Assembly (NCBI GenBank): GCA_000320545.1
Contig: ADNK01000002.1
Location: 1-64,000, forward strand
Length of the DNA: 64,000 nucleotides
Reading direction: 5' to 3'
DNA from: Bigelowiella natans CCMP2755
Lineage: Eukaryota; Protista; Cercozoa
This document shows, piece by piece, positions 16,866 through 52,838 of this stretch. The position numbers were made by a program, and so were the translations under genes. The number at the start of each line of letters is the position of its first letter. Position 1 is the stretch's first letter. The notes under the pieces are model-generated. The model had not been told where the DNA came from, made no database searches, and worked only from the letters and a program-made list of their open reading frames with translations.

Positions 16866-17223
16866 TTTTAGCGGACTAGCGGTAGCTGTTTGGCTTTTGT
16901 GCGCGGGACTGTGCTGTTGATGTTGGAAAGTCAACACGCGGTCTCGTGTGCTTTTGGATTCTGATGATGACTTGTGACTTGCGCTGCACGCATGTGCGCA
17001 TTGGGTTCCGGCGCATTCGCGAAGATTCTCGAATCTTCCAGAATTCTCTCGAATTCTCTCGAGTGTTTCTGGAAGGTTCTCGAAGCTTCCGGAATGTTCT
17101 CGAAGATTCTGGAAGTTCTGAGAACTTCCATGCGCATGTGCGCAGCGCAGCGTGCAGCACGAGTGGACGTGCGCATGCTGCGACAGCTCCTTGATCGTGG
17201 GTGGCGCGGCCAGACCGCTGACA
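16866..17223 (-). repeat. Copia 3' LTR (358 bp)
   Basis: Matches 23592-23949 except for 5 substitutions in the terminal 27 bp. Confidence 0.95.
17016..17114. promoter_or_regulatory. Heat-shock element (nGAAn) arrays in the Copia LTR (second copy at 23742-23840)
   Basis: 6 in-register alternating TTC/GAA units at 17016-17043 and 10 units at 17067-17114. Confidence 0.75.
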
Positions 17224-18978
17224 CGCCCCCATGGACGTGGTGACCACGATCAGAGTGCTGATGTGCACGTGCCATTTCTGCCATGGTGACAGAACTTTTG
17301 CACGGTGCTGCACATGGACGCCATTCCCAAAGGTTTCGGAGTCCGAATGGTTGGCAATGTTTTGCCGACCAAACATCGCACCACCAGACGCCCAAAAACT
17401 CTGTGCAGAGGCACAAAATTCCCAGGCTTGCAACTGGGCAAGGTGCCATGGGCATGGTGCACTCCGAAATCGGCAGGAAAAATTCTTGCCTGACTGGGCA
17501 AGGTGCCACCATTTCGGTACGAACTGGGACTTGTCCAAAAAATTAATTTTTTTTGAACGACACCAGTGTGCTTCCAGAAAAGAATTTTTCTGCGACACTG
17601 GTGCACTTCCAGAAAAAATTCTGGAATCCCCTGGGCACTTCCAGAAAGATTCCAGAAAAATTCCGGAATGCCCTACGTTCGTCACCTGCACCCACATGCG
17701 GTGTTGACCAAGGCTCGGTAGGTAGGTAGACAGGTGGGTAGTGCAAGTAGTCCTTTCCTCCTTCTTCTTCTTCTTCTGTTTTTCGTCATCAGCAGTACGA
17801 GCAGCACGACCCTTCTGGTTTGATCGTTGCTGTTTGATGCCATCTCTGTCACTTACACTGTCACTACTGCTGCTGCTGTTTGCGTTGTGATGGCTACGGC
17901 GGTCTACTTTGAAGGGTTGTTTCTGATGCCCATGAAAGTTCCAGAAAGATTCCAGATTGTTGCTGCGTTTTTGTGAGACTAAGCTAATACTAGCTGTTTC
18001 GTTAGTGATATGACGAGGAAGGGGGGGTGGAGGAGCCCCCTCAAAGCTTTGTTGAGGGACCGCTGCTCTTGCCTGGTCCCGAACGTTCGACCCCAAGTAT
18101 GCTTCGCCCTGTAGGCGCGATTTTGTCTCATAAGGTGCGGCCAATTTCGATCTATCGGTGTCCTTGCCATGATAACCTTTTGTGCCAGAACCCTCATTGT
18201 GATAGATTCCCCTTCTGCCTGCTTCCATGAAGGGGGGAGCGAGGATTCTCTTACCGGAAAGCTATAACGACGGTTATTGAATTATTTATATAATAATGAG
18301 TCATCACTGAGCACCATAAGGGGCGCTAACTTCCTCATAATGAATATTCACCGCTTCGACCGGCCTGGATCTGTGATAGCCATTTCTCTGCGTAACTATT
18401 TGGTTGTCTTTGTGAATAGGCCCTCCTTGGTAGTCATGCTGTGGACGATCCGTTAACCCTGTATGGAGACTCAAGTTCACGTGCCTTAGAAATCGCTATA
18501 TTACCCATGCTGCTTTGTTGCGGTCTCTGCATTTCTTTATTGTGGCCATTGTACATAGGAGCCACAGCAGATGCCTCGCCACTTCCAATATAATACCGAT
18601 AATTGTGTGGATCTCCAGGCGATCGTTTTTCCTTTTGTTAACTTCGTAGGTATCTTGTAGTATACAGCTTTTGCATGTTCTCTCCTTATATTTGACTTCG
18701 TATTTGTTATACACTAGGTATCTCGTCTTCATTATTATATCCGCCCCCATGATTGTGCAGTGTCTGGAAGACACTGTGCAATCATATAGAAATCTATAGC
18801 GTATTCTACATTCGCCCCCATGATAGCGAGAGTGTCTGGAAGACACTGTGCATATAGTCCATAGCAAGATACGCAAGGAAAGGTACACACATACAAAGAT
18901 GTGTGCCATTAAAACCTTGCAGCCTATATGTTTATATGTTGTAGGTTTCTAAATGGACGTGGGGCTTTCATAGGGCGA

Positions 18979-21900
18979 CTAAGCGGACGTGGGGCCGACA
19001 AGGCGAGGGAGCTTGTAAGGTAGAGTCTTTGTAGTTATTTTTCTTTTTCTGGTGCCTTGTAGCATGATGGTTAGTTTTTCTCTGTATGATATAGGGAACA
19101 AGAAATCACAGTGTTTCTTGTTGCTAGGTCCTGGTAGAGCCTTAGTAAGTATATCAGCGGGATTGTCCTCCCCAGGTATTTTGTTTATGCAGATCTGCTT
19201 AGTTTGATAGTTATCACGAACATTGTGATATTCTATCCTTATGTTCTTGCCTTTTTGTGTGAATCCAGGCTTGGCTGCAATGGAGATAGCTGCTTGAGAG
19301 TCACAATACACAGGTACAGGTTTCGGTATCTTCATCTTTAACTCCTGTAGTAACTGAGTGACATACACTAACTCTCTGCATATATCTGATAGTGCTATGT
19401 ACTCAGCCTCGCCACTGGACATAGCAACGACCTTTTGCTTGTTGCTCTTCCAGACAACAGGTGCGTTGCTTAGCGATATGAAATATCCTGAGTATGATTT
19501 ACCCGTTTTCTTGCAGGTTTTCCAGGAGGCATCGACGTAAGCTTTAAGCTCAGGTTTGGACGCTGCTTTAAAGGTAATTCTTTTATCCTTTGTATTGACC
19601 AGATACTGCAGTAAGCGTACTGCAGCGATGTAGTGTATAGTTCTAGGATCTTGACTGTAGGAAGCTAGACGAGATAGAGTGTAGCATATGTCTGGTCTAG
19701 TAGCCACAGCTGCATACATTGCAGCTCCTATGATGGATCTGTATGCCTTTTGATCCACCTTATCATGCTCCTCGTATTCGTCTAACTTCGATCCTGTTAT
19801 CATTGGTGTTTTTGCTCTTTTCGTAGGCGTGATATCATACTTCTGGGCGAGTCTGGTGAGGTAGTCTTCCTGCGATATCCAATAGTTTCCCTCATTGTCG
19901 CTACCAACTCTTATGCCCAGTGTTTTCTTTAGCTCGCCTTCATCGCGAAACTCAAACTTGTCGCCTATTCGCTTCATGACAAAGTCCAGGTCTCTCTTAT
20001 CTTGATATGCTATGCATATGTCATCCACGAAACATGACAATATGATGATTCTTCCTTGTCTGTGCATTATCATTAGGCAAGGATCGGAATAAAGCTGGAC
20101 GAAGCCAATGGCGTTGAGATGCTCGAGCAAGGTAAGGCTGAATATTGCACTTGCTTGTGTCAGCCCATAAATGCTTTTATTTACCAGTAGGGCTAGTGGA
20201 AGGCCACTGTTGTATAGCCGGATTTCATCAGGTGTCTTCGGCTTCCACCCTTTAGGTATTTCCATGTATACTTTACAGTCCATCTTTCCAGTTAGGAAAG
20301 CTGTAAGTATATCTATCCCGTGTAGTTTTAGCTTGAGGATAGATGCTATGGCTAACATTATCCGAAAACTATTTAGGGACAACGTCGGGGAATAAGAGAA
20401 GAAGAAGTCTTCTCCCGGGATCTGCGTGAACCCTCGCGCGACCAGCCTTGACTTATACCGAATGGTATAGTCTACATTTATTTTCTTCTTGAATACCCAT
20501 TTAGATGTAACGAAATTTGTATCCTTAGGTCGCACTACCAGCGTAAACGTTCCAAGTTTTCGAAGCTGGTGCAGTTCCTCTTCCGTAGAAGGTATCCAAT
20601 GCTTCTTATCATCTCCTGTGATTGCATCGTCATACGTCTTAGGAAGGTCCTCGATCTCTTGTACTGATGGAGCTTTTATGTTCATCAGGCGGTCGTAATA
20701 GCTACCAAGTATTCCGTAACGAATACCAGGTACTCCCCTATTTTCTCTATTCGACCTTCGAGGCTTACTTTTTGCTTTTGTTTCAGGCCCACCATCCTCT
20801 GGCAACTCGTCAGTTGCACTGGATGGTTCGGGGGCGTCCGCGTCGGCAGGACCTTCTGGATAAAGGTACGCCAAAGCCGAATCACTAACTTTGTTTCTCT
20901 TCAGCGAAGGAAACTTAAACACTGTGTGGTACCATTTAGTTACACGGACTCTTTTAATTTTCAGCGTCTTCGTGGCGACGAGAAAAGTACCAAATCTATC
21001 GTCATATCCCAACATACGTACGTATTCACCTCTAGCACCCATACCACCTGCAGGTCGGAGTTCCTTGTCAATGTGGTTTACTCCGATGCATCCCCAGGTA
21101 GTTAGATTCTTTAGATTTGGTTGCTCATGGTGCAGTAGTTCTTTAGGCGTTTTTCTACCAGGTGTGCTGCGATGTGAGGTGACGTTGTGGAGATATGCTG
21201 CAGTCTGAGCTGCGTAGGACCAGTATCCGACCGGTAAGCGTGCATGTTCTAACATAGCTCTTGTTTTCGCCATGATAGTCTGTATGTGACGCTCGGACAT
21301 TCCATTTTGCTCAGGTGTTCGGGCGGTGCTAGGAACCCATTTTATTCCTTCGGAGGTGAGCCAGCTATGTAGCTTTGCGCTCATATATTCACCTCCACCA
21401 TCCGATCTGAATTCGTCTATGCTTCCACAACCTGGAAGCTTTCTGATGTGCTTTAGGAACTGTATGGTTTTCTGCGTAACTTCGCTTTTCTTTCTCATGA
21501 GCTCCAAGGTAACCCACCTTGTTCCTTCATGTACGAATATTACGAAATACTTGTAACCATCCATGCTGTTAGGCATGGTCTTTACATCAGAGTGAATTCT
21601 ATTCCACATCCGGTTTTTCTTGTGGATATCAGGTACACATTTTTGCTTCTTTTTGACAGCATCGTCCTCAATCTTTGCTTTATTCCGATGCTGTTTCATC
21701 CTTTCTTGGGCGCTTGGATCAAAGATCGGAGATCTTTTTGTTTTGGCTACATCACAGGCCTTGCAAAAGATCTTCTTTGGTATTTTTATCGTCTTGGAAT
21801 AAGGTAAACCTTCTGTAACTGCATAGGTGTCTCTTATCTTATCCGCTGCGATGTGCCCTAGGATGTTATGTGCGTGCTTGATTGAAGATGGCTGTTTCAT

Positions 21901-23421
21901 TGGGTAGGATTTAAATCTTTGTGTTTTTGTACTTTTGTTTATTTGTTTATATCTCAAATAAAATAGGCCGTCGTCTTGAAAGTCCCCGAACGCGTATTCC
22001 TCTCCGTTGGCGGTAATGCTTATTCCTTGTTTTGTTCCTTTGTACTCGCTGCCACTCTTAACTAGTCTGTTTAGAGAAATCACATTGCCTGCAGCTTCTT
22101 CAGAGTACAAAGCTCCTTGTAGAACAATTTTGTGCATCTTTCCTTGCTTGTTTTTTGTAGTTAGTTTGACGTCGCCTGCATAATTCACAAAGAATCCTGT
22201 CCCATCTTTGCCAACTTCTATGTATCGTGGTTGAATAGGTTTCAACTCGTTGAAGAAGTCGCGGTCGCAGAAGAAGTGGTTGTTGGCTCCGCTGTCGAGA
22301 AGGATCAAAGGCTTATGGTTGTACTTCAGCGTTTGCAGGTAAGAATTGTCGCGTGCCATCTTATTAATGTAAGAGGGTCTTTGGGAAGGGGAGCCATGAT
22401 CAATAAAAGAATAGTGTTTTCCTTTGTTCTGCTTGCCTTCATCTCTCATCTTGTTTCTGCATTCCTTTTCCCAATGTCCTTTCTTGCCACAGTAATGGCA
22501 TTTTGTTCTTTTCTTTAAGTTCAAGAAATAGTCTTCTCTCTTTTGCTTCTTGGAATTGTCTTGATATGCTTCGCTGTTGTATCTGTTCTTTCCCTTTTTG
22601 AATTTCCTCTTGTAGGTCTTCAGCTGACCTGTAAGTTCGTTTAGCCTTTTCTCCAAGCCATCGTACATCTTCACGTATTTGTGTTCTGCACTGGTGTGTC
22701 CTGCATGTTTCTTTGAAGGTCTCTGCCCGTCATCTAATGATCGGGAGTTTATGTGGGAGCGGATCATGTCCACTGCAGAGTCGAAGGTAACATCTTTCTT
22801 GTTGTTGATGACTGTAACTATAGTCTCGTATTTTTCGCTAGGTACAAGTCCTCGAAGTAGAGTGGCAAGCGCTTGGTTGTCGGAGTACCCTTCGTGCTGT
22901 GCCCGAAGTCTTCTGATCGTCGAGTCAAGGTCAGAATGATACTTTGTGAAGTCTCCATTGTACTGACCCATGTTTATATCACTTAGTTTCGAATAAAGTT
23001 TCCTGACGGCTACAGGATTGGTAGGCTCGTACTTCTCCAGCAAGGCTGCTAAGGTAACTGCTACGTCTTTGGGTTTTCCTTCGAGTAGATCGAAGAATTT
23101 ATCAGGAAGGGTAGCAGTGAGGAAGAATCTTCCTCTCTTTCTTTTGTTTATCTTTTCTTGTGATCCTCTTCCTTCAGGTTTGGGATTGAGGATATCGAAT
23201 TGCTCCGGGGATAGCTTGAGTACTTCTCGTCGGTGAGCGGGGTCGGTGCGTACATTGACTTCTGTCACCTTTCCTTCTATTTCTATGTTGACATTGAAGC
23301 ATGATTCCAAATCCGCTGCTTCAAAGGCAGACATTAGCTTGTACATGTAGGGCTTGTAGTTGCTACCATCGTACTTGAGGGTGAAGTTTTTCAGCAGGGA
23401 GTCTATCTGCTTTTCTGACAT
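18979..23421 (-). CDS. Copia gag-pol polyprotein (1480 aa)
   Basis: Zn knuckle CHYCGKKGHWEKEC; protease LLDSGA; integrase H..H..CKAC, IHSD, RSDGGGEY, PEQNGMSER; RT KSRLVARGF, SIYGLTQA, FVDD; RNase H YVDASW, NPADILTK. IN-before-RT order defines Copia. Confidence 0.98.
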   Translation of the reverse strand: MSEKQIDSLLKNFTLKYDGSNYKPYMYKLMSAFEAADLESCFNVNIEIEGKVTEVNVRTDPAHRREVLKLSPEQFDILNPKPEGRGSQEKINKRKRGRFFLTATLPDKFFDLLEGKPKDVAVTLAALLEKYEPTNPVAVRKLYSKLSDINMGQYNGDFTKYHSDLDSTIRRLRAQHEGYSDNQALATLLRGLVPSEKYETIVTVINNKKDVTFDSAVDMIRSHINSRSLDDGQRPSKKHAGHTSAEHKYVKMYDGLEKRLNELTGQLKTYKRKFKKGKNRYNSEAYQDNSKKQKREDYFLNLKKRTKCHYCGKKGHWEKECRNKMRDEGKQNKGKHYSFIDHGSPSQRPSYINKMARDNSYLQTLKYNHKPLILLDSGANNHFFCDRDFFNELKPIQPRYIEVGKDGTGFFVNYAGDVKLTTKNKQGKMHKIVLQGALYSEEAAGNVISLNRLVKSGSEYKGTKQGISITANGEEYAFGDFQDDGLFYLRYKQINKSTKTQRFKSYPMKQPSSIKHAHNILGHIAADKIRDTYAVTEGLPYSKTIKIPKKIFCKACDVAKTKRSPIFDPSAQERMKQHRNKAKIEDDAVKKKQKCVPDIHKKNRMWNRIHSDVKTMPNSMDGYKYFVIFVHEGTRWVTLELMRKKSEVTQKTIQFLKHIRKLPGCGSIDEFRSDGGGEYMSAKLHSWLTSEGIKWVPSTARTPEQNGMSERHIQTIMAKTRAMLEHARLPVGYWSYAAQTAAYLHNVTSHRSTPGRKTPKELLHHEQPNLKNLTTWGCIGVNHIDKELRPAGGMGARGEYVRMLGYDDRFGTFLVATKTLKIKRVRVTKWYHTVFKFPSLKRNKVSDSALAYLYPEGPADADAPEPSSATDELPEDGGPETKAKSKPRRSNRENRGVPGIRYGILGSYYDRLMNIKAPSVQEIEDLPKTYDDAITGDDKKHWIPSTEEELHQLRKLGTFTLVVRPKDTNFVTSKWVFKKKINVDYTIRYKSRLVARGFTQIPGEDFFFSYSPTLSLNSFRIMLAIASILKLKLHGIDILTAFLTGKMDCKVYMEIPKGWKPKTPDEIRLYNSGLPLALLVNKSIYGLTQASAIFSLTLLEHLNAIGFVQLYSDPCLMIMHRQGRIIILSCFVDDICIAYQDKRDLDFVMKRIGDKFEFRDEGELKKTLGIRVGSDNEGNYWISQEDYLTRLAQKYDITPTKRAKTPMITGSKLDEYEEHDKVDQKAYRSIIGAAMYAAVATRPDICYTLSRLASYSQDPRTIHYIAAVRLLQYLVNTKDKRITFKAASKPELKAYVDASWKTCKKTGKSYSGYFISLSNAPVVWKSNKQKVVAMSSGEAEYIALSDICRELVYVTQLLQELKMKIPKPVPVYCDSQAAISIAAKPGFTQKGKNIRIEYHNVRDNYQTKQICINKIPGEDNPADILTKALPGPSNKKHCDFLFPISYREKLTIMLQGTRKRKITTKTLPYKLPRLVGPTSA

Positions 23422-23580
23422 GTTGTTTCGTTCCTGTTTTCTTTGTTTTCAGTGCTTTGGAGGCTTGACCGAAGATTGGCTGAGGGAATGCTGTTGTCGC
23501 TTTCAGTTCCTTCTTCTGGAAGGATGTAGCTGAAGGGGGGGGGTGGGGGGTTTGCTTGGTTCTTTTGCAAGTCCTCTTGA

Positions 23581-23591
23581 GGCTCATAACC
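23581..23591 (-). promoter_or_regulatory. Primer-binding site, half-tRNA-iMet type
   Basis: Minus strand GGTTATGAGCC directly after the 5' LTR resembles the GGTTATGGGCCC PBS of Drosophila copia. Confidence 0.8.
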
Positions 23592-23949
23592 TTTTAGAGG
23601 GCTTGCGGTAGCTGCTTAGCTTTTGTGCGCGGGACTGTGCTGTTGATGTTGGAAAGTCAACACGCGGTCTCGTGTGCTTTTGGATTCTGATGATGACTTG
23701 TGACTTGCGCTGCACGCATGTGCGCATTGGGTTCCGGCGCATTCGCGAAGATTCTCGAATCTTCCAGAATTCTCTCGAATTCTCTCGAGTGTTTCTGGAA
23801 GGTTCTCGAAGCTTCCGGAATGTTCTCGAAGATTCTGGAAGTTCTGAGAACTTCCATGCGCATGTGCGCAGCGCAGCGTGCAGCACGAGTGGACGTGCGC
23901 ATGCTGCGACAGCTCCTTGATCGTGGGTGGCGCGGCCAGACCGCTGACA
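23592..23949 (-). repeat. Copia 5' LTR (358 bp)
   Basis: Minus strand begins TGTCAGCGG and ends CTAAAA, immediately followed by the PBS. Confidence 0.95.
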
Positions 23950-24179
23950 CCTAGTGCTATAACAACACCATCGAACTAGCTCAGCTCATACAGCATGAAA
24001 TTGAACCATCATCATGCATGCATCGATCTTGGCGGGTAGCACCCGTCTACCCGTTAACGGCGCCCATCTGGACATAGCTAGATAGTTAGATAAATGCTAG
24101 AGTGCTACACTACGTACACTAGTACACATTGAATGCAGCTTGCTGCACAGACATTGCTATCTAGCTAGCAAGCTATGCC

Positions 24180-26791: not shown

Positions 26792-27820
26792 TTAAGTTCT
26801 CGCGTTACATAGATTTGATCAATGTGTGATTTACATTGTGTGTAGAACACATCAAAAGGACTAACTATGTTTCCCTATCAATAAAACGTTGCGATGATGT
26901 CCAGCACGTAAATGCATCCAATGCATTTGTAGATTGACGCATGGTCTGCATCGCATCAGCACACAGAAACGAAATGTGTGAGTCTCCCTTTCTAGCTTTG
27001 AGCGCAATGAACTTGTTGGCATATTATGCATTGCGTGAAGTGCACGCACGTTTGCATGTATACGGTGTGAAAGGTGATCAGTGCGAGATGCGATGAATCG
27101 ATCACTCAGTGCTTGCATGCACGCCACTGAACCAGCATGCACGCGCGCGAAACCGCTGGTAGCAGTGGCGTGGCTTGCATCATTCACAGCGGCGGTGCAA
27201 ACAGCACGCAATCAACGCACATCCACGCGTGCTTGCGAAGCGCAATGGAATTATTGGACACAATACAGTGACATCATGTTCATGTCATGCCAGCATGTGT
27301 GGTACGGTGTTGCATGTCTGTGATGTTTCAATGAACAATGAACAATGAACAAAGCATTGATGCAAACACTGCATGAAAAAGAACCACATGGGAGACATGC
27401 ATGAACTGTGACAGCAGCACCTCATCAAAAATCATTGCGAGGAGGGAGCTGCGATGCCTTCCCTTCTCCAACAAAGGGGGCCAATCATCAAAAGCGGCAT
27501 TGGCCATTGCCGTGAGGGCGTTGGGCAGGGATGACTCTGCGACACGTTCACTGCACGATGCAGGCTCATGTCGTTAGCCTGCAATAATACTAGCAGCATT
27601 CTTGATCGTTGTATGTAGACATAGTAGCCATGGAAATGAAAATGTGAAATATGTTCAATACTGGCGCGTAGCACCGATCTCTCCCACTTCTGATTCTATC
27701 TCTGATCTGGGAATGGATAAGCTGGAGTAAAAGTTTTGGGGTAGTTGAGCGAAAACTTGTCCATATGTGCCTTAAGTATAGCAGACATAGGTAAAATATT
27801 TTTCACATCATACAGCATCT

Positions 27821-45129: not shown

Positions 45130-45710
45130 TGGGAACAATGAGAACAATGATGAAAAACTGCACTTTCAAAGTGTGACAAGACACTTGCAGTGTGTCGAAC
45201 TGGCTTCAGTGAGGACTGAAAACTGAGCCTCGAACTGACTTTGGTGGGCTGGTGAGAACTGACCAGTGAAACAAAAAGGAATGAAGAATGGCATCACTCC
45301 AGCCACTCCTCCTCCATTCCTAGCTTCATTGTCTTTTGTGCCTGATCTCGGGAACAATGAACAATGATGAACAATGAACAATGAACAATGATGACGAACC
45401 ACACTTCCAAAGTGTTGCAAGACGTTTGCAGTGATCGAAGTGCAGTGCCTCGAACTGGCTTCAGTGAGGACTGTGACCAGCAAATCAACTGGCTGGTTTT
45501 TCAAGTTGGCATGATTTGGTCATTGTGTTGCAATGACACTGTGAACAATGAACAATGATGACGAACTGCGTTCCAAAACGTTGCAAGACACTTGCAGTGA
45601 TCGAAATGCAGTGCCTCGAACTGGCTTCAGTGAGGACTGTGACTGGCGGCAAATCAACTGGCTGGTTTTTCAAGTTGGCATGATTTGGTCATTGTGTTGC
45701 AATGACACTG
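45130..45710. repeat. Diverged ~180-bp tandem repeat with AACAATG runs
   Basis: Units share CTTGCAGTG..TCGAACTGGCTTCAGTGAGGACTG and CAAATCAACTGGCTGGTTTTTCAAGTTGGC; partial copies at 52500-52600. Confidence 0.85.
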
Positions 45711-46560: not shown

Positions 46561-46680
46561 TTCTGATGAACAATGAACAATGAACAATGAACAATGATGA
46601 TGATGAACAATGAACAATGAACAATGAAGAAAGCGTTGATCAAAACCACGTGCGCCAGAACCACATGGGAGACAGGCATT

Positions 46681-47006
46681 TGTAGCGCGTACCACTACGC
46701 GGGCACAAGTCACGTGCGACAACAAAGGGGTTGTCGCGGATATAGAATATAGATAACGTAGATATTAATACAGCATAGGCACGTGGGTTCCGGCGGGACT
46801 CATGGCAGCACACCGGAAGTGTGCTGCCCCACGTGCGGCGGCATTCGCGAAAGCTTCGCGAATGATTACGCAGTGCACGATTTAATAAAAATATAATCTT
46901 TAATAAAAATAAACACAACTCTTCAAAAGGAAGCAAACGTGCCTTTCCCCCCCCCTGCCTACTTGTGCACGTAGCGCCTCGGCCTGTGAACACCTTACGC
47001 GCAACA
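46681..47006 (+). repeat. Gypsy 5' LTR
   Basis: TGTAGCGCG...CGCGCAACA; identical to 52070-52395 by eye. Confidence 0.95.
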
Positions 47007-47045
47007 ACCTTTGGCTTCCACACACGGGAAACGATTTGACTAACA

Positions 47046-48227
47046 ATGTCACAGCAGCTAGAAGAACAGCAGGACTTTGGCTCGCAGGCCGTGCAAGGGC
47101 ACGAGCAGAAACAGGAAAGGAAGGGCGATACGGACGCTAAGGAAGGAGGAGGAACACCTCCACAGGCACCGCCGGGACCAGCACCCGGGATTAAGAAAGC
47201 AGATGCAGCAGCAGAGGCACTGGAGAACTTCTACGAGGCGGACGACGAGGACGTGGCCGCCGAAAGCAAGAAGGTCGTAATGGCATTACGAGCCTTGCGA
47301 CCCAGGGCGAGCAACTACGCCAAACTGAAAGTATCGATAGAATACAAGTATCAGACACATGATGTTTGGGCAGCTATCATGCAGGACATCATGGATTACG
47401 AAGCAGACTTACCTCCAGAGTGGGCAGCTTTGTTTAGGAACGACGGGGGTCTGGGCGCCTCGCGGGGGACGACCCAGAGCACCGTCAAGCAGCAGCAGCC
47501 GGTACAGCGGAACACCCAGTTCATGTCTGTTAAAACAGCACCGGTTATGATAACGAAATACAACGGGAAAAGAGGTGAGGCAAGGAGGTGGTGGAAGAAC
47601 GCTAGGAGTATACTCTGCGACTTTACCCCTAACCCCACCGAAAACGACAAGCTCAAATGGCTAGCTATAATAAAGCAAGCCATGGACCTTTACGAGACAG
47701 GCAGGACCCGGATCAGGCAGCTAGAGAAAATACACACTACAGTTAGTGGGCTACGAGACGTTGAGGCGATAATGAAGGCTTTTGTAAATGAACAGGATGC
47801 TAACTCCCTACCCCAGGCTATTAGAAAATACAGAGCAATGATGCAGCATGAGAGAGAACCTGTTAGAGACTTTGCCACGCGCTTCCAGGATATGATCGAC
47901 GAACTACATGATTTTAATTACAACACAGGTGATGATCAGGCAAGGTTTGAAGAGTTCAAGTTAAAGATAAAGGAATCCACTTACGTTACGGAGAAAGGCT
48001 ACACCACGATGGAGGCAGCAGTGCAGGCTATATCCCTACGCGAGCAGGAGCAGGACCGCAAGTTTACCAGCCCTAAGGTACCTGGCATAGGAAACATTAA
48101 CGCTATTAAGCCGCAGCGAGACTGGTACAAGGACAGGGAAGGTAACCGACGTTGCGGATACTGCTCACGTAAAGGGAAACACACCGCTAAGACTGCAGAG
48201 ACAGGAAAGAAGGACGACCCAGGATGA
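47046..48227 (+). CDS. gag: Gypsy Gag
   Basis: Capsid-like MHR-type segment QHEREPVRDFATRF; partial Zn knuckle CGYC..H near the end. Confidence 0.85.
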   Translation: MSQQLEEQQDFGSQAVQGHEQKQERKGDTDAKEGGGTPPQAPPGPAPGIKKADAAAEALENFYEADDEDVAAESKKVVMALRALRPRASNYAKLKVSIEYKYQTHDVWAAIMQDIMDYEADLPPEWAALFRNDGGLGASRGTTQSTVKQQQPVQRNTQFMSVKTAPVMITKYNGKRGEARRWWKNARSILCDFTPNPTENDKLKWLAIIKQAMDLYETGRTRIRQLEKIHTTVSGLRDVEAIMKAFVNEQDANSLPQAIRKYRAMMQHEREPVRDFATRFQDMIDELHDFNYNTGDDQARFEEFKLKIKESTYVTEKGYTTMEAAVQAISLREQEQDRKFTSPKVPGIGNINAIKPQRDWYKDREGNRRCGYCSRKGKHTAKTAETGKKDDPG

Positions 48228-51200
48228 CGATCAGGCAGCTCAACGAACACTACGAGAAGTTAAAGAGAAAGAAAGGCAGAGGACAAGGATATAACAACAG
48301 CAAATGGCAAGGCAGCAACAACGGGAAGAACAATAAATATAAGAACAAAAAGCAGAACAGTATCAATGCTATACAGCAGCAGATAAACGGAATATTAGAT
48401 CACCTTAAGCAGGCGCCGACGAAGACAGCAGTACCAGCAACGCAGGACCAAGACAAGCCCATGACCCTAGACGACATAAAGAACTTAGGAGTATGCAACA
48501 TTAATGACGAAGACGCTAACAGGACTATCAAAGTTGCTATGACCAAGGTTAAAGTTAAAGACAGCTACGGAGACTACAAGAAACTACCTGCCCTTTGGGA
48601 TAGTGGCAGCATGCCGAAGTCCTTCATAAGCCTAAGCACAGTAAGAAGGTTAGGACTATTGGATCAAGTGACTAAGAAAGAACGTAAATATGCTCAAGCA
48701 GACGGAAGCTCTTCCATGAAGACCGTCGGTGAGCTAATGCTAAAGCTACAGATACCTGGCAGCGACGCGGAGACCCAAATCAAGACCCGAGTAGCCATGA
48801 CTTTATCCATGGAACTACTCCTCGGACAGGATGCCCTAGAAAAATTAGGGGGGATCATATCATTCTACAATCACAAGATATACTTTGCTAAGTTGCCAAA
48901 GAAGTCAGGCAGGACCATCAGCCAGAACATGATACGGCTTGACGAGTGGACCTCTGAGTCAAGCGTTAATGCGTTAGAGTTTATGGACCTAGCGGACAAC
49001 AAGCTACCTACACCTACCGAGCTACGGAAGAAGAACCCCGGCAAGACCATCCGACAGATAACGGAGCTACTGGACAAGACCCCCCCAGCTGATGATTGGG
49101 ATATCGACAAAGGCAAAAAGTACATTAATAAAATATTAAACGAGAAGTACTCTGACATCACCAAGCCGACGACGAAGCCCTCCAGCAAGCTTACCCCAGT
49201 AAAGATCGAGCTAAAGAAGGGATACGAAGAGTGCATCATCAATGACCCAGAACATAGGCGACCGGAAGCGGACTGGGAAAAGATAGAGTGGCAGATCAAT
49301 GAATGGGCAAAGGAAGGGAAGATAGAGCCAAGCAACTCACCATGGAACGTGAGACATGTGCTAGCTAAGAAACCTACTTACCCTTTCTTCCGCCTGGCGC
49401 ACAACTTCATCCGCCACAACCGAGTAATAAAGAGGATCCAGACACCTACACCAAGGATAGATGACGTTATTGAACACGTCATAGGATACAAATACTACTC
49501 TTCCCTAGATAAAAATGAATCATACATGCAGACACCCATCCACAAAACCTCCCGCCCCATTACCGCGTTCTCCAGCAGGCACAGGAAGTGGCACTTCGTC
49601 GTATTCCCTTACGGCCTAAGCATATCAGGGGATGCGTTCAGTAGTCAGAACTACAGGGCATACACACATGATGGGATGGCGTCTGTGTTGTGGGTGTTTG
49701 TGTTTGTGTATGTGGATGATGACATAATATGTACCAACACAGTCGTCGCTCAGATCTTCCTCCTGGAAAATATATTTATTAGGTTTGCACACTTCGGTTT
49801 TACTATTAGACTGCAGAAGTGTACATTCCTAGCTACAAGAATCAAGTGGTGTGGATATTACCTGGAGCAAGGCCGCATCACCCCAAACCCCGAGAAAGTA
49901 GCAGCACTACAGCAAGCCCCTAAACCTAAGAATGCAAAGGAGTTAAAGTCATTCTTGCAGACTGCAGCTTGGATACTACGTAGGTTCTCCCCTACCTACG
50001 CTAGGACTGCAGCTGCTTTTACTACTGCTTACCGGAAGGAGAACTCTGTAGGCCTCAGCTTCGCTAAGGTGTGGGCCAAGGCTGGCCTTGATGCCCACTT
50101 CGATAACCTAATAAAGTTATGCAGCAACACCCTATTGAATGCTAAGCTAGACACTACTAGACCAGCTACCCTATGGACAGACTGGTCTAAGCTAGGTATG
50201 GCTGCTGTACTTACCCAAGACCAGCAGATCATACGGGTGTGGGGCAGGGCCTGCACAGCAGCTGAGGCCAAGTACAGCCCTACAAAAGGAGAGTATAAAG
50301 CCATGACTGAGGCGCAGAGGAAACTAAGATACTACCTGCTGTCGGTGCCCAGCTTCACCTTAATGACTGACCACAAGCCCCTCCTAGGCATCGACCGCAA
50401 GCTCGAAGCGCCTAACGATGAGTATGCAGCTATGAGGGCGGACACGGAAGAGTTTAGGGACAAGAGGACAGTGGTCTACGCACCAGGAGACAAGCAGCTT
50501 GCTGACTATTTCAGCAGGCTGTTCGAAAAGAAAGTCCCTACCCAGGTCACCCCTAGGGTTAACGCGATTACCTTCGAGGACGGCGACTTCCTGCCTGAGC
50601 CAGAGGAGCTCCAGCACCTTCAAGAACACCTGGATAAATACAAACACAAGCATGAGGTACTTAGTGATAGGATATATGTATACACTAATAATGTTAGGCG
50701 TACCTACGTGCCACGGCGGACCAGGGGAGCCCTTCTCTTTACCGCCCATGGACCTGCACACGTAGGAGAAAACCATATCACTGCTCTACTCTACCATTAC
50801 TACTGGCCCTACAAGCTAAAAGAGATAAGGACATACCTGCGTGGCTGCAGGTGCTCCAGCTTGAAGGCGGCAGGCGTCGCCACCAAGGAGTCCAGCAAGA
50901 GCCGTGCATCTAAGAAAATCAAAGCAAGGAACTTCTTAGATATCGTGCAAATTGATGTTTATAAGTACGATGGCTATCACTACCTTACCTTCGTTGATGT
51001 GGCCACTGGAAAGTGCTGGGTTAAAAAGATTATCAAGGTCAACGTTGCTAAGAAGAACAAAGGCTTATATAAGCAGAGGCTTACTAACTGCTACCGTACC
51101 TGGGAGTCTGAGCTCCAGGCTATCCCTGATGAAGTTAGCATAAACAAGATACCAAAGAAGTTACATGTGGATAATGAGACCTCTCTTCTACAGCTACCAC

Positions 51201-52018
51201 ACCCTAATATTGATGCCTCACCTGTATACTATGCCCAGTCCAACTCCAAGGTAGAGCGACTCCACCGCACCTTGGCCAACCTAAGCAGGATAAATAGCAC
51301 CACACCAGACAAGATACAAGGGTTAGTAAACGACACCTTCACGTCTGGGGGAGGTATCAAGGATAAGGAGAGGGAAGAAGGCGACGACAACGACGACGAT
51401 ACCGAGAGCGAAGACGAGAAGGTCCCGTACGATGGCCGAGTTCTAAAGGAAGGACAGTATGTTAGGGCCAAGGTAAATCTGAGATCGAGAAATAAACAAG
51501 ACCCCTTCTGGGGTGGCGTTGCAAAGGTTACCGAGAGGAAGGGGAGGAAGCAGTACTACATCTATGATGGGAACAGGGTCACCTTGCGCCACATCAGTCA
51601 CCTAAAGAATTATGATATCGGTGAGAAGCTCCTAGAGGATGTTAAAGTAAACCCTACTGTGTGGGAGCGAGCAATGCCTTGTTTAGGACCCCGACCTAAG
51701 TTCGATGTGGAATATGGAAACAATAAGGTCAGGGTGAACGACGATTGGCGCATGAAGATTGTCTATCTAGGCTACCCTGGATTACGAAATATGGAGAGGG
51801 TAGCTATGAAAATAAAGGACGGAAAATATCAGCTACTCTACCTAGCTGTTCCCGACTTACCCTTTGAGCACTGGTATAAGGTCCTGGGGGACCTTGATGC
51901 AGAGGGCTGGTATGGACACGAACCTAAGGACGAAGGTGAGTTCTGGGTAAGCGACAAAGGAGATAAGGTTAGAGAGGAATCTATTACCTGGTGGTTGGTG
52001 AAGTTCCGAAAGCGATGA
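48191..52018 (+). CDS. pol: Gypsy Pol (PR-RT-RNase H-IN plus extra C-terminal domain)
   Basis: ALWDSGS; SPWN; FPYGL; YVDD; LWTDWS; TDHKPL; integrase IVQID..VDNE..SNSKVERLHRT. The frame opens at 48191 after a TAA; first ATG is at 48224. Confidence 0.95.
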   Translation, partial: DCRDRKEGRPRMTIRQLNEHYEKLKRKKGRGQGYNNSKWQGSNNGKNNKYKNKKQNSINAIQQQINGILDHLKQAPTKTAVPATQDQDKPMTLDDIKNLGVCNINDEDANRTIKVAMTKVKVKDSYGDYKKLPALWDSGSMPKSFISLSTVRRLGLLDQVTKKERKYAQADGSSSMKTVGELMLKLQIPGSDAETQIKTRVAMTLSMELLLGQDALEKLGGIISFYNHKIYFAKLPKKSGRTISQNMIRLDEWTSESSVNALEFMDLADNKLPTPTELRKKNPGKTIRQITELLDKTPPADDWDIDKGKKYINKILNEKYSDITKPTTKPSSKLTPVKIELKKGYEECIINDPEHRRPEADWEKIEWQINEWAKEGKIEPSNSPWNVRHVLAKKPTYPFFRLAHNFIRHNRVIKRIQTPTPRIDDVIEHVIGYKYYSSLDKNESYMQTPIHKTSRPITAFSSRHRKWHFVVFPYGLSISGDAFSSQNYRAYTHDGMASVLWVFVFVYVDDDIICTNTVVAQIFLLENIFIRFAHFGFTIRLQKCTFLATRIKWCGYYLEQGRITPNPEKVAALQQAPKPKNAKELKSFLQTAAWILRRFSPTYARTAAAFTTAYRKENSVGLSFAKVWAKAGLDAHFDNLIKLCSNTLLNAKLDTTRPATLWTDWSKLGMAAVLTQDQQIIRVWGRACTAAEAKYSPTKGEYKAMTEAQRKLRYYLLSVPSFTLMTDHKPLLGIDRKLEAPNDEYAAMRADTEEFRDKRTVVYAPGDKQLADYFSRLFEKKVPTQVTPRVNAITFEDGDFLPEPEELQHLQEHLDKYKHKHEVLSDRIYVYTNNVRRTYVPRRTRGALLFTAHGPAHVGENHITALLYHYYWPYKLKEIRTYLRGCRCSSLKAAGVATKESSKSRASKKIKARNFLDIVQIDVYKYDGYHYLTFVDVATGKCWVKKIIKVNVAKKNKGLYKQRLTNCYRTWESELQAIPDEVSINKIPKKLHVDNETSLLQLPHPNIDASPVYYAQSNSKVERLHRTLANLSRINSTTPDKIQGLVNDTFTSGGGIKDKEREEGDDNDDDTESEDEKVPYDGRVLKEGQYVRAKVNLRSRNKQDPFWGGVAKVTERKGRKQYYIYDGNRVTLRHISHLKNYDIGEKLLEDVKVNPTVWERAMPCLGPRPKFDVEYGNNKVRVNDDWRMKIVYLGYPGLRNMERVAMKIKDGKYQLLYLAVPDLPFEHWYKVLGDLDAEGWYGHEPKDEGEFWVSDKGDKVREESITWWLVKFRKR

Positions 52019-52069
52019 AGGTCTAAGGGAATAAGGAAGGAAGGAAGGAGCAACGTGACTTGGGGGAGG

Positions 52070-52395
52070 TGTAGCGCGTACCACTACGCGGGCACAAGTC
52101 ACGTGCGACAACAAAGGGGTTGTCGCGGATATAGAATATAGATAACGTAGATATTAATACAGCATAGGCACGTGGGTTCCGGCGGGACTCATGGCAGCAC
52201 ACCGGAAGTGTGCTGCCCCACGTGCGGCGGCATTCGCGAAAGCTTCGCGAATGATTACGCAGTGCACGATTTAATAAAAATATAATCTTTAATAAAAATA
52301 AACACAACTCTTCAAAAGGAAGCAAACGTGCCTTTCCCCCCCCCTGCCTACTTGTGCACGTAGCGCCTCGGCCTGTGAACACCTTACGCGCAACA
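52070..52395 (+). repeat. Gypsy 3' LTR
   Basis: Follows the PPT; identical to the 5' LTR by eye. Confidence 0.95.
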
Positions 52396-52838
52396 CATTT
52401 GCACGCAGCAGAGCCTCAACAACACTCGTTGCAAGGACTTGTCAGCACCCTGTTGGTGAGAGACACAAAAAATCAGCCGCATCCCATGAAATTGGCATGA
52501 AACAATGAAACAATGAAACAATGATGAAAAACTACATTTCCAAAGTTTTGCAAGACACTGGCATGGATGATGATGAACTGCGTTTCCAAAATGTCGGAAT
52601 GTGAGTGACTTGTGAATCTGAAACAGATTCATGGAGCTCAAGAATGCGACATGAATGTGTGAATGACGCACAACACAATTGGGGTCCTGTTTGTGAATCG
52701 ATTCATGGAGCTTAAGAATGCGACATGAATGTGTGCCTGACGCACATCACAATTGGACTGATGTTTACCACTACGACTCATTTGAGCCCGGTGAAGGAAG
52801 AAGGGTAGTTACATAAGACTCGAAACCTCCATTCTCCC

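What the first reader, a model, noticed from the sequence alone, without database searches (positions are those of the whole stretch)
51635..52015. Gypsy Pol ends in a Dam-like adenine-methyltransferase-like domain
Seen: after the integrase and an SH3-like segment comes VKVNPTVWERAMPCLGPRPKFDV..DDWRMKIVYLGYPGLRNMERVAMKIKDGKYQLLYLAVPDLPFEHWYKVL. Known: the phage-Dam-like domain of DIRS retroelements follows roughly L...F..I...GP..IDLFA..W....YAFPP..LI..VL.KI....ILIAP.WP...WF..L. In Gypsy elements this position usually holds a chromodomain or nothing. Inference: a captured MTase-fold domain with degenerate motifs (DLFA to DVEY, FPP to YPG), possibly an inactive reader for targeting or a protector of the element's adenines. 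This is notable beside an apparent adenine-directed mutator.
Basis: partly seen in the sequence, partly recalled or inferred. Interest (0 to 1): 0.75.

Follow-up and report, generated by a model that had tools for sequence, protein, structure and literature searches.

The report
Disabled methyltransferase tail on algal retrotransposon
A recently active Gypsy-type jumping gene of a marine alga ends its polyprotein in a 127-residue domain that is likely a worn-down, probably inactive relative of the adenine methyltransferase domain of DIRS elements, a kind of fusion already described in a 2026 preprint but not reported there for this host group.

Summary
The quoted peptide is really there: the last 127 residues of a 1,275-residue Pol frame of a young Gypsy-type LTR element (identical 326-bp LTRs, 4-bp target duplication); proteins with the same tail, 97-100% identical, carry Bigelowiella natans gene-model labels. 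The Dam-like reading is likely but unproven. Pfam, PHROGs, PDB-sequence, atlas and profile-HMM searches gave nothing, and there is no signal against phage Dam. Against 39 real DIRS methyltransferase domains, though, the tail outscores 967 of 967 real decoy segments (z 3-4 in global alignments), aligns end to end and stops the same 80 residues after the catalytic-motif proline. This element's own integrase is also invisible to HMMER. The SAM-binding stretch is deleted and the catalytic motif replaced, so catalysis is unlikely; a published table lists the host as lacking AMT1. Best reading: a pseudo-methyltransferase kept as a nucleic-acid-binding appendage of integrase (homology about 0.8, that role about 0.5). 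DAM-carrying LTR elements are known (bioRxiv 2026); this would be a degenerate rhizarian variant. No adenine-directed mutator was found. Side finding: RNA contigs show at least 20 antisense introns across the element.

The parts
46677..46680 (+). Left target-site duplication (CATT)
   Evidence: same 4 bases follow the 3' LTR
46681..47006 (+). 5' LTR, 326 bp, TG...CA, 100% identical to the 3' LTR
47012..47030 (+). Likely primer-binding site (TGG start, 5 nt after the LTR); tRNA not identified
   Evidence: sequence; inference
47046..48227 (+). Gag frame (weak Retrotrans_gag hit, E=0.033). Other copies have one more A after 48188, which would join gag and pol into one frame
   Evidence: (3 of 3 DNA contig sets)
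48191..52018 (+). Pol frame, 1,275 aa: protease (active-site motif at 48593), RT (YVDD at 49709), RNase H (50174), integrase, barrel, Dam-like tail
50747..51330 (+). Integrase zinc finger and highly diverged D-D-E core (candidate D 50954, D 51170, E 51254)
   Evidence: 4.4 bits by HMM; z 6.4 pairwise
51443..51607 (+). SH3/PWWP-like barrel, likely the usual integrase C-terminal domain
   Evidence: weak hit; position; recalled GPY/F-type pattern
51635..52015 (+). Likely degenerate DIRS-type Dam (N6-adenine methyltransferase fold) domain; retained aspartate at 51704, deletion of about 15 residues before 51755, YPG in place of FPP at 51773-51781
   Evidence: against: 9, 24, 46, 61, 63
52062..52069 (+). 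Polypurine tract before the 3' LTR
   Evidence: sequence
52070..52395 (+). 3' LTR
52396..52399 (+). Right target-site duplication (CATT)
47721..51987 (-). Span of at least 20 antisense GT-AG introns (56-165 nt) seen in RNA-derived contigs; three of them (51602-51657, 51696-51860, 51924-51987) overlap the Dam-like coding region on the opposite strand; no long ORF in the spliced product

Best explanation
The Pol polyprotein of this young Gypsy-type element ends, after integrase and its small barrel, in a domain that is likely a DIRS-type Dam methyltransferase fold which has probably lost its enzyme activity and would act as a non-catalytic DNA- or chromatin-binding appendage of integrase. Shown: position, open frame, conservation across copies, collinear alignment to DIRS MT domains, deletion of the stretch that carries the DAF motif, and YPG in place of FPP. 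Inferred: homology (about 0.8). Inferred from the general methyltransferase motif scheme (recalled): the SAM-binding half is broken while the C-terminal half (four strands, two helices) still folds. Inferred, untested: it stays attached to integrase, occupies the slot that chromodomains hold in chromoviruses, and helps hold the cDNA or choose the target. Catalysis may have been dispensable because the host is listed without AMT1, the enzyme that would maintain any 6mA laid down.
For: Mean local score against 39 DIRS domains is reached by 0 of 967 real decoy segments and by 2 of 400 (BLOSUM62) or 1 of 400 (BLOSUM45) shuffles; global score z 3.0-4.0, reached by 0-1 of 300 shuffles, 0-1 of 500 decoys, 0 of 107 other retroelement C-termini. 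MAFFT places the tail on the MT domain even when given whole RT-RNase H-MT proteins; 11 of 38 columns conserved at 90% or more are identical, 9 fall in gaps, 18 differ. Distance from the motif proline to the C-terminus is 80 residues, the mode in DIRS (41 of 118; 79 of 118 within 79-81). With the DIRS alignment AlphaFold2 gives ten-residue pLDDT means of 65-91 over residues 51-136; its best viral matches are phage Dam models (rank 1, probability 0.99, E=0.012) and its best solved match the cap methyltransferase 6irx (Z 4.6, rmsd 4.1, 103 aligned), but this is partly circular. Calibration of the blanks: an intact DIRS domain scores only 17.4 bits on Pfam Dam, under the 28.1 cut-off; this element's own integrase core scores 4.4 bits on an integrase HMM and its RT sits on a branch of 3.1 changes per site, so an open tail of conserved length is unlikely to be neutral (inference). 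Host listed with AMT1=0, AMT6/7=0, AMT2/5=0 (PMC12695648 Supplementary Table 1).
Against: No hit in Pfam at E<=1, PHROGs, PDB sequences other than one chance row or the ESM Atlas. DIRS profile HMM: 2.2 bits, not significant, below two unrelated window frames; phage and mixed profiles do not list the Pol frame. PSSM tests: 61, 137, 320 and 778 of 1000 shuffles reach the score. hhalign probability 1.7-4.9%, P 0.008-0.03. No signal against phage Dam sets. The model without an alignment is poor (pLDDT 38.8) and lists no methyltransferase among 50 rows. Foldseek on PDB ranks Alba and GNAT folds first, none with E<=0.001; Z 4.6 is within the range the tool calls common. No control was possible for the borrowed-alignment model, and that alignment misplaces the first 28 residues. 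No diverged sister family was found, so selection on the tail and any binding role are untested. The DIRS set is narrow (relatives of one seed).
Confidence: 0.5

Rival explanations
2. The tail is an unrelated alpha/beta domain and the resemblance to DIRS MT is chance.
For: All library and profile searches are blank or non-significant; no signal against phage Dam; the unbiased model shows no methyltransferase; 18 of 38 well-conserved columns differ.
Against: 0 of 967 real decoys reach the pairwise score; end-to-end collinearity and equal distance to the C-terminus; the same blanks hold for the element's integrase.
Confidence: 0.2
3. The tail is an active adenine methyltransferase that marks the element's cDNA or RNA-DNA hybrid, as proposed for DAM-LTRs, protecting or activating new copies.
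For: The motif-I aspartate, the following asparagine-lysine and one motif-IV proline are kept; the preprint reports more 6mA on DAM-LTR copies in three species.
Against: Deletion of about 15 residues with the DAF motif and YPG for the Asn-Pro-Pro triplet that the preprint finds in almost all DAMs; even intact eukaryotic DAMs gave no 6mA in E. coli; host listed without AMT1; no mutator found to protect against.
Confidence: 0.05

Closest known systems
DAM-LTR retrotransposons (Fernandez-Moreno et al., bioRxiv 10.64898/2026.05.21.726589; whole main text read, supplements not seen)
   Same: Ty3/Gypsy-type LTR element with a DIRS-like Dam domain in the Pol frame; small alpha/beta domain.
   Different: The five lineages named are from chlorophytes, an ochrophyte, ichthyosporeans, Pyropia and Euglena; Bigelowiella, Rhizaria, Cercozoa and chlorarachniophytes do not occur in the main text. 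Those domains keep Asn-Pro-Pro and pass an HMM screen at E<=1e-5; this one has neither. 9 of 13 DAM-LTR hosts there have AMT1; this host is listed without it. No chromodomain here.
DIRS1-like MT domain (Pfam Dam PF05869-related; PMC3266345 and PMC3783388, passages read)
   Same: Collinear alignment, same C-terminal end point, C-terminal position in a pol frame.
   Different: In DIRS it follows RNase H in a tyrosine-recombinase element; here it follows a DDE integrase and barrel in an LTR element. About 15 residues shorter, 15-27% identity, FPP replaced.
Chromovirus integrase chromodomain (recalled; also summarised in the preprint's introduction)
   Same: Same slot, at the C-terminus behind the integrase barrel; proposed targeting role by analogy.
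   Different: No sequence or fold relation; a targeting role here is untested.
Spliced antisense RNAs of HeT-A/TART (PMC2615633, abstract read) and Blumeria TE antisense lncRNAs (PMC10648671, abstract and passages read)
   Same: Non-coding antisense transcripts of a retroelement with introns (side finding).
   Different: [quoted passage not shown]

Membership tests
Ty3/Gypsy LTR retrotransposon | Two LTRs with TG...CA ends and a target-site duplication | tested here: met
   326-bp identical LTRs, 4-bp duplication
Ty3/Gypsy LTR retrotransposon | Domain order protease-RT-RNase H-integrase | tested here: met
   Pfam order in P0001; integrase core weak by HMM but z 6.4 pairwise
Ty3/Gypsy LTR retrotransposon | RT groups with Gypsy rather than DIRS | tested here: met
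   Quick tree of 45 Gypsy-type, 25 DIRS and the query RT: query on the Gypsy side of a branch with SH-aLRT 100; very long branch, place within Gypsy unresolved, Gypsy rows were found by similarity to the query
DIRS-type Dam / DAM-TE domain | Significant match to the Dam profile (PF05869 or a DIRS-derived profile) | tested here: not met
   an intact DIRS domain also stays under the Pfam cut-off
DIRS-type Dam / DAM-TE domain | Collinear sequence similarity to DIRS MT domains above chance | tested here: met
   (z 3-4; moderate, family chosen after the fact)
DIRS-type Dam / DAM-TE domain | Class I methyltransferase-type fold | tested here: inconclusive
   Seen only in the model made with a borrowed DIRS alignment; unbiased model uninformative
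Active N6-adenine methyltransferase | Asn-Pro-Pro catalytic triplet (Phe-Pro-Pro in the DIRS set fetched here) | tested here: not met
   YPG at the aligned place
Active N6-adenine methyltransferase | Intact SAM-binding region (DLFA loop and DAF motif; assignment of these motifs to SAM binding is recalled) | tested here: not met
   Aspartate kept, FA and a 15-residue stretch with DAF in gaps
Active N6-adenine methyltransferase | SAM binding and methyl transfer | not testable with these tools
   Needs a bench assay
DAM-LTR lineages of the 2026 preprint | Dam domain nested in the eukaryotic DAM clade / one of the five lineages | not tested
   No DAM-LTR sequences could be fetched; the remote representative search never ran
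DAM-LTR lineages of the 2026 preprint | Host with AMT1 and raised 6mA on copies (a tendency, not a strict rule) | tested here: not met
   Published table lists AMT1 absent in Bigelowiella natans and Lotharella oceanica; 6mA itself not measurable here
Diversity-generating retroelement-like adenine mutator | Template and variable repeat pair differing at adenines | tested here: not met
   No such pair within the window; the rest of the genome was not available

The most novel reading that the evidence does not exclude
A Gypsy lineage in an alga without the 6mA maintenance enzyme has turned a captured Dam methyltransferase into a pseudo-enzyme that replaces the chromodomain as integrase's targeting module. 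This would show that the conserved job of retroelement Dam domains is nucleic-acid binding rather than methylation, and explain why they persist in hosts without 6mA and show no activity in E. coli.
Probability: 0.2. Interest if true: 0.7.

Novelty: new variant of a known kind. Interest (0 to 1): 0.4.

Why it matters
The function of the Dam-like domain of DIRS elements has been open since it was described (PMC3266345 calls it unknown), and the 2026 preprint ties DAM-LTRs to host AMT1 and 6mA. A very young, multi-copy element that keeps the fold without the catalytic and cofactor motifs, in a host listed without AMT1, is a natural test of whether the domain has a non-catalytic role. It also shows that HMM screens at E<=1e-5 can miss such members. 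If the homology fails, the tail is an orphan domain of a very divergent Gypsy family.

Tried and rejected
No whole genome was held, so copy number, insertion sites and sister families could not be read from it. The HMMER scan of 1.84 billion representatives never ran (queue full on 10 of 10 tries). Word-index protein searches found only 97-100% identical gene models from the same genome (13 proteins) and generic Gypsy proteins at 22-30% identity with no Dam annotation (best 120 of 197 listed); a motif scan of the 123 proteins then held found no Dam-like motif set. Viral contigs: no relative; metagenome contigs: 1 locus of 47 candidate stretches, a spliced copy of the same family. tblastn of phages gave only E>=0.8 rows, not methyltransferases. 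Two atlas searches blank. Single-sequence model and its fold search uninformative. Rejected: an adenine-directed mutator. Rejected: a hidden antisense protein-coding gene as the reason for the tail's sequence; with the known introns removed the longest open stretch is 142 codons with 11-17 stops per frame (the intron list is incomplete). No complex prediction was run. RNA runs X17 and X18 covered too little to add joints. The scan's earlier findings held nothing for this sequence or place.

Full report
Observation. Pfam places a protease, reverse transcriptase, RNase H and an integrase zinc finger in that order. The frame lies between two identical 326-bp LTRs (46681-47006, 52070-52395) with TG...CA ends and a 4-bp target duplication, so the insertion is very recent. 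Thirteen protein clusters with the same tail at 97-100% identity carry the label Bigna1, which I know as the JGI code of the chlorarachniophyte Bigelowiella natans; one cluster has 22 members. Three of three DNA contig sets laid on the element list no difference in the tail and carry one more A at the gag-pol junction, which would make one frame (these runs may be the source strain). A quick RT tree puts the element on the Gypsy side of the split from DIRS (SH-aLRT 100) on a branch of 3.1 changes per site (45 of 102 Gypsy-type RTs and 25 DIRS RTs used, careful search unfinished).

Library searches of the tail are blank. Pfam at E<=1, PHROGs, PDB sequences (one chance row), phage genomes (E>=0.8) and the ESM Atlas give nothing useful. 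No diverged relative turned up in protein clusters, viral contigs or metagenome contigs. The large HMMER scan could not be run.

Direct test against real DIRS domains. A motif scan of viral contigs returned one genuine DIRS RT-RNase H-MT frame (L002), and a search with its MT domain returned 120 listed relatives of 269, several with PF05869 or PF12237 annotation. The profile from them recognises phage Dam proteins at E down to 8e-10, so it is the right family. Against it the tail gives mixed results. Profile methods do not detect it: 2.2 bits with HMMER, no listing with phage or mixed profiles, 61 to 778 of 1000 shuffles as good in four PSSM settings, hhalign probability 1.7-4.9%. Pairwise methods do: 25% identity over 79 residues, pair E=1e-6; the mean local score over 39 non-redundant DIRS domains is reached by 0 of 967 real decoy segments and 1-2 of 400 shuffles; the mean global score has z 3.0-4.0 and is reached by 0 of 107 other retroelement C-termini (first 500 of 967 decoys used there). 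There is no signal against 56 or 30 phage Dam proteins. The two kinds of result fit together if the most conserved family positions are the ones that were lost, which is what the alignment shows: of 38 columns conserved at 90% or more, 11 are identical, 9 are gapped and 18 differ. The alignment is collinear from the N-terminal helix to the last strand, has two single-residue gaps or fewer over the last 86 residues, and ends 80 residues after the motif proline, the modal distance in DIRS (41 of 118).

Calibration. An intact DIRS domain scores 17.4 bits on Pfam Dam, below the cut-off of 28.1. This element's own integrase core scores 4.4 bits on an HMM from 19 integrase cores and z 6.4 by the same pairwise statistic that gives the tail z 3-4. 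Blank library searches are therefore expected even if the tail is a true homologue. Against this stands the fact that the family was picked by eye beforehand, which weakens P values of about 1e-3.

Structure. Folded alone, the tail gives pLDDT 38.8 and no methyltransferase among 50 fold-search rows. Folded with 117 DIRS rows it gives mean pLDDT 66, with block means of 65-91 over residues 51-136, as strand-helix-strand-helix-strand...strand, and under 51 over residues 1-50, where the alignment was partly wrong and the deletion lies. That model's first viral matches are phage DNA N6-adenine methyltransferases (rank 1 probability 0.99, E=0.012, TM about 0.4; none at E<=0.001) and its first solved match by full alignment is the cap-specific adenosine methyltransferase 6irx (Z 4.6, rmsd 4.1, 103 aligned), while Foldseek on PDB ranks Alba and GNAT proteins first, none significant. 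Since the alignment was borrowed and no decoy control could be run, this shows compatibility, not proof. Overall I put homology at about 0.8.

How it likely works. In the aligned tail the aspartate of the DLFA loop and the following Asn-Lys are kept, but FA and a 15-residue stretch with the DAF motif fall in gaps, and FPP becomes YPG. By the standard methyltransferase motif scheme (recalled) these are the cofactor-binding and catalytic parts, so methyl transfer is unlikely. The half that remains well formed is the one that faces the nucleic-acid target in such enzymes (recalled). Because the frame has stayed open to the same end point in an element that is otherwise extremely diverged, some function is more likely than none (inference). 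Its place, fused behind the integrase barrel where chromoviruses carry a chromodomain, suggests a non-catalytic DNA- or chromatin-binding appendage that holds the cDNA or steers integration (inference, untested; about 0.5 overall). Supplementary Table 1 of PMC12695648 lists B. natans with no AMT1, AMT6/7 or AMT2/5, and Lotharella oceanica likewise, while Reticulomyxa has AMT1 (four rhizarian rows seen). If so, the route proposed in the preprint, seeding 6mA that host AMT1 then maintains, is closed in this host, which offers a reason for the loss of catalysis. Rivals: a relic without function (0.25), chance resemblance (0.2), active enzyme (0.05).

The 'adenine-directed mutator'. I found no support. 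The window holds no repeat pair that differs at adenines. The only candidate, an A-poor tract before YVDD, is matched by 35 of 1000 codon shuffles and is not listed as different in other copies.

Comparison with what is known. bioRxiv 10.64898/2026.05.21.726589 (whole main text read; supplements closed) reports Dam domains in Gypsy-type LTR elements in five lineages, finds Asn-Pro-Pro in almost all, and saw no 6mA gain on expression in E. coli. Bigelowiella, Rhizaria, Cercozoa and chlorarachniophytes are not in its main text, and its screen used hmmsearch at E<=1e-5, which this tail would not pass on Pfam Dam. Searches listed no paper on this element family; the library is partial. Passages of PMC3266345 and PMC3783388 define the DIRS MT domain and call its function unknown. 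Unchecked notes of this scan report other Gypsy elements with Dam after integrase or with lost catalytic motifs; they lower the novelty and were not tested here. The finding is thus a likely new, degenerate variant of a known kind, not a member of the active Dam family by the features tested.

Side finding. RNA-derived contigs show the element's antisense strand spliced at 20 or more GT-AG introns, four of them at identical positions in two studies and nine shared with an independent contig record whose origin I did not determine. Three overlap the tail's coding region on the other strand and do not alter the protein. No long ORF results. Spliced antisense RNAs of retroelements are known (PMC2615633 abstract; PMC10648671 abstract and passages), though this density is high. 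Contigs cannot give strand or level directly; strand is inferred from the splice ends.

Verdict. Observation confirmed; interpretation partly supported; new variant of a known kind; interest 0.4.

Noticed in passing
window 47721-51987, minus strand; L129:38-1544: The element's antisense RNA is densely spliced. One search lists 15 joints in run X15 (9 more not shown), 12 with CT..AC ends; one search lists 12 joints, 11 with CT..AC ends, 4 of them also in run X16 of another study. Contig L129 maps in 13 pieces; 12 of 12 gaps resolve as antisense GT-AG introns and 0 of 12 as sense ones, 9 shared with the run lists. Union 20 introns, 2,075 nt. Among the 17 from the runs, 16 have a purine at +3 and 17 a pyrimidine at -3. 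Some introns are retained in some contigs; no long ORF. Likely non-coding, perhaps cryptic splicing of a U-rich strand in an intron-rich host, perhaps part of silencing.
   Followed up: partly
window 48188: The window copy lacks one A that 3 of 3 DNA contig sets carry and that the gene models imply; the family would have a single gag-pol frame, so the frameshift here is a copy mutation or an assembly error.
   Followed up: yes
window 52023-52308, minus strand: Pieces of an X18 contig jump from 52309 to 52022 (table 8), with CT..AC ends in the window sequence: a possible further antisense intron across the polypurine tract and part of the LTR; the tool dropped joints at this repeat as mostly false.
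   Followed up: no
window 49667-49714: A-poor, GT-rich tract just before the RT YVDD motif (4 A in 48 nt; 35 of 1000 codon shuffles as extreme); shared by other copies, no template repeat in the window.
   Followed up: yes
window 16866-23950, minus strand: A second young element, Copia-type (1,489-aa frame 18979-23448; 359-bp LTRs 98.6% identical, all five differences within about 27 nt at one end), with about 1.7 kb between pol and the 3' LTR.
   Followed up: no
window 46608-46680 and 52396-52563: The Gypsy copy sits inside older repeated sequence (flanks resemble 27329-27402 and 45130-45710), and X15 contigs join 46679 to 52410 like an empty site of a related repeat. One site says nothing about target preference.
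   Followed up: no
window 50954-51254: Integrase core looks shortened: 27 residues between the second D and the E instead of the usual 35 (recalled), and it is missed by Pfam rve.
   Followed up: partly
runs X1-X14: Fourteen DNA runs filed under eleven different coded organism labels each hold 95-98% of the element's words; not explained (same culture, contamination or mislabelling are possible).
   Followed up: no
L074:1849-3312 and L060:1276-4152: Giant-virus contigs with PCIF1-like NPPF methyltransferase domains weakly recognised by the DIRS profile (E=0.02 and 0.5).
   Followed up: no
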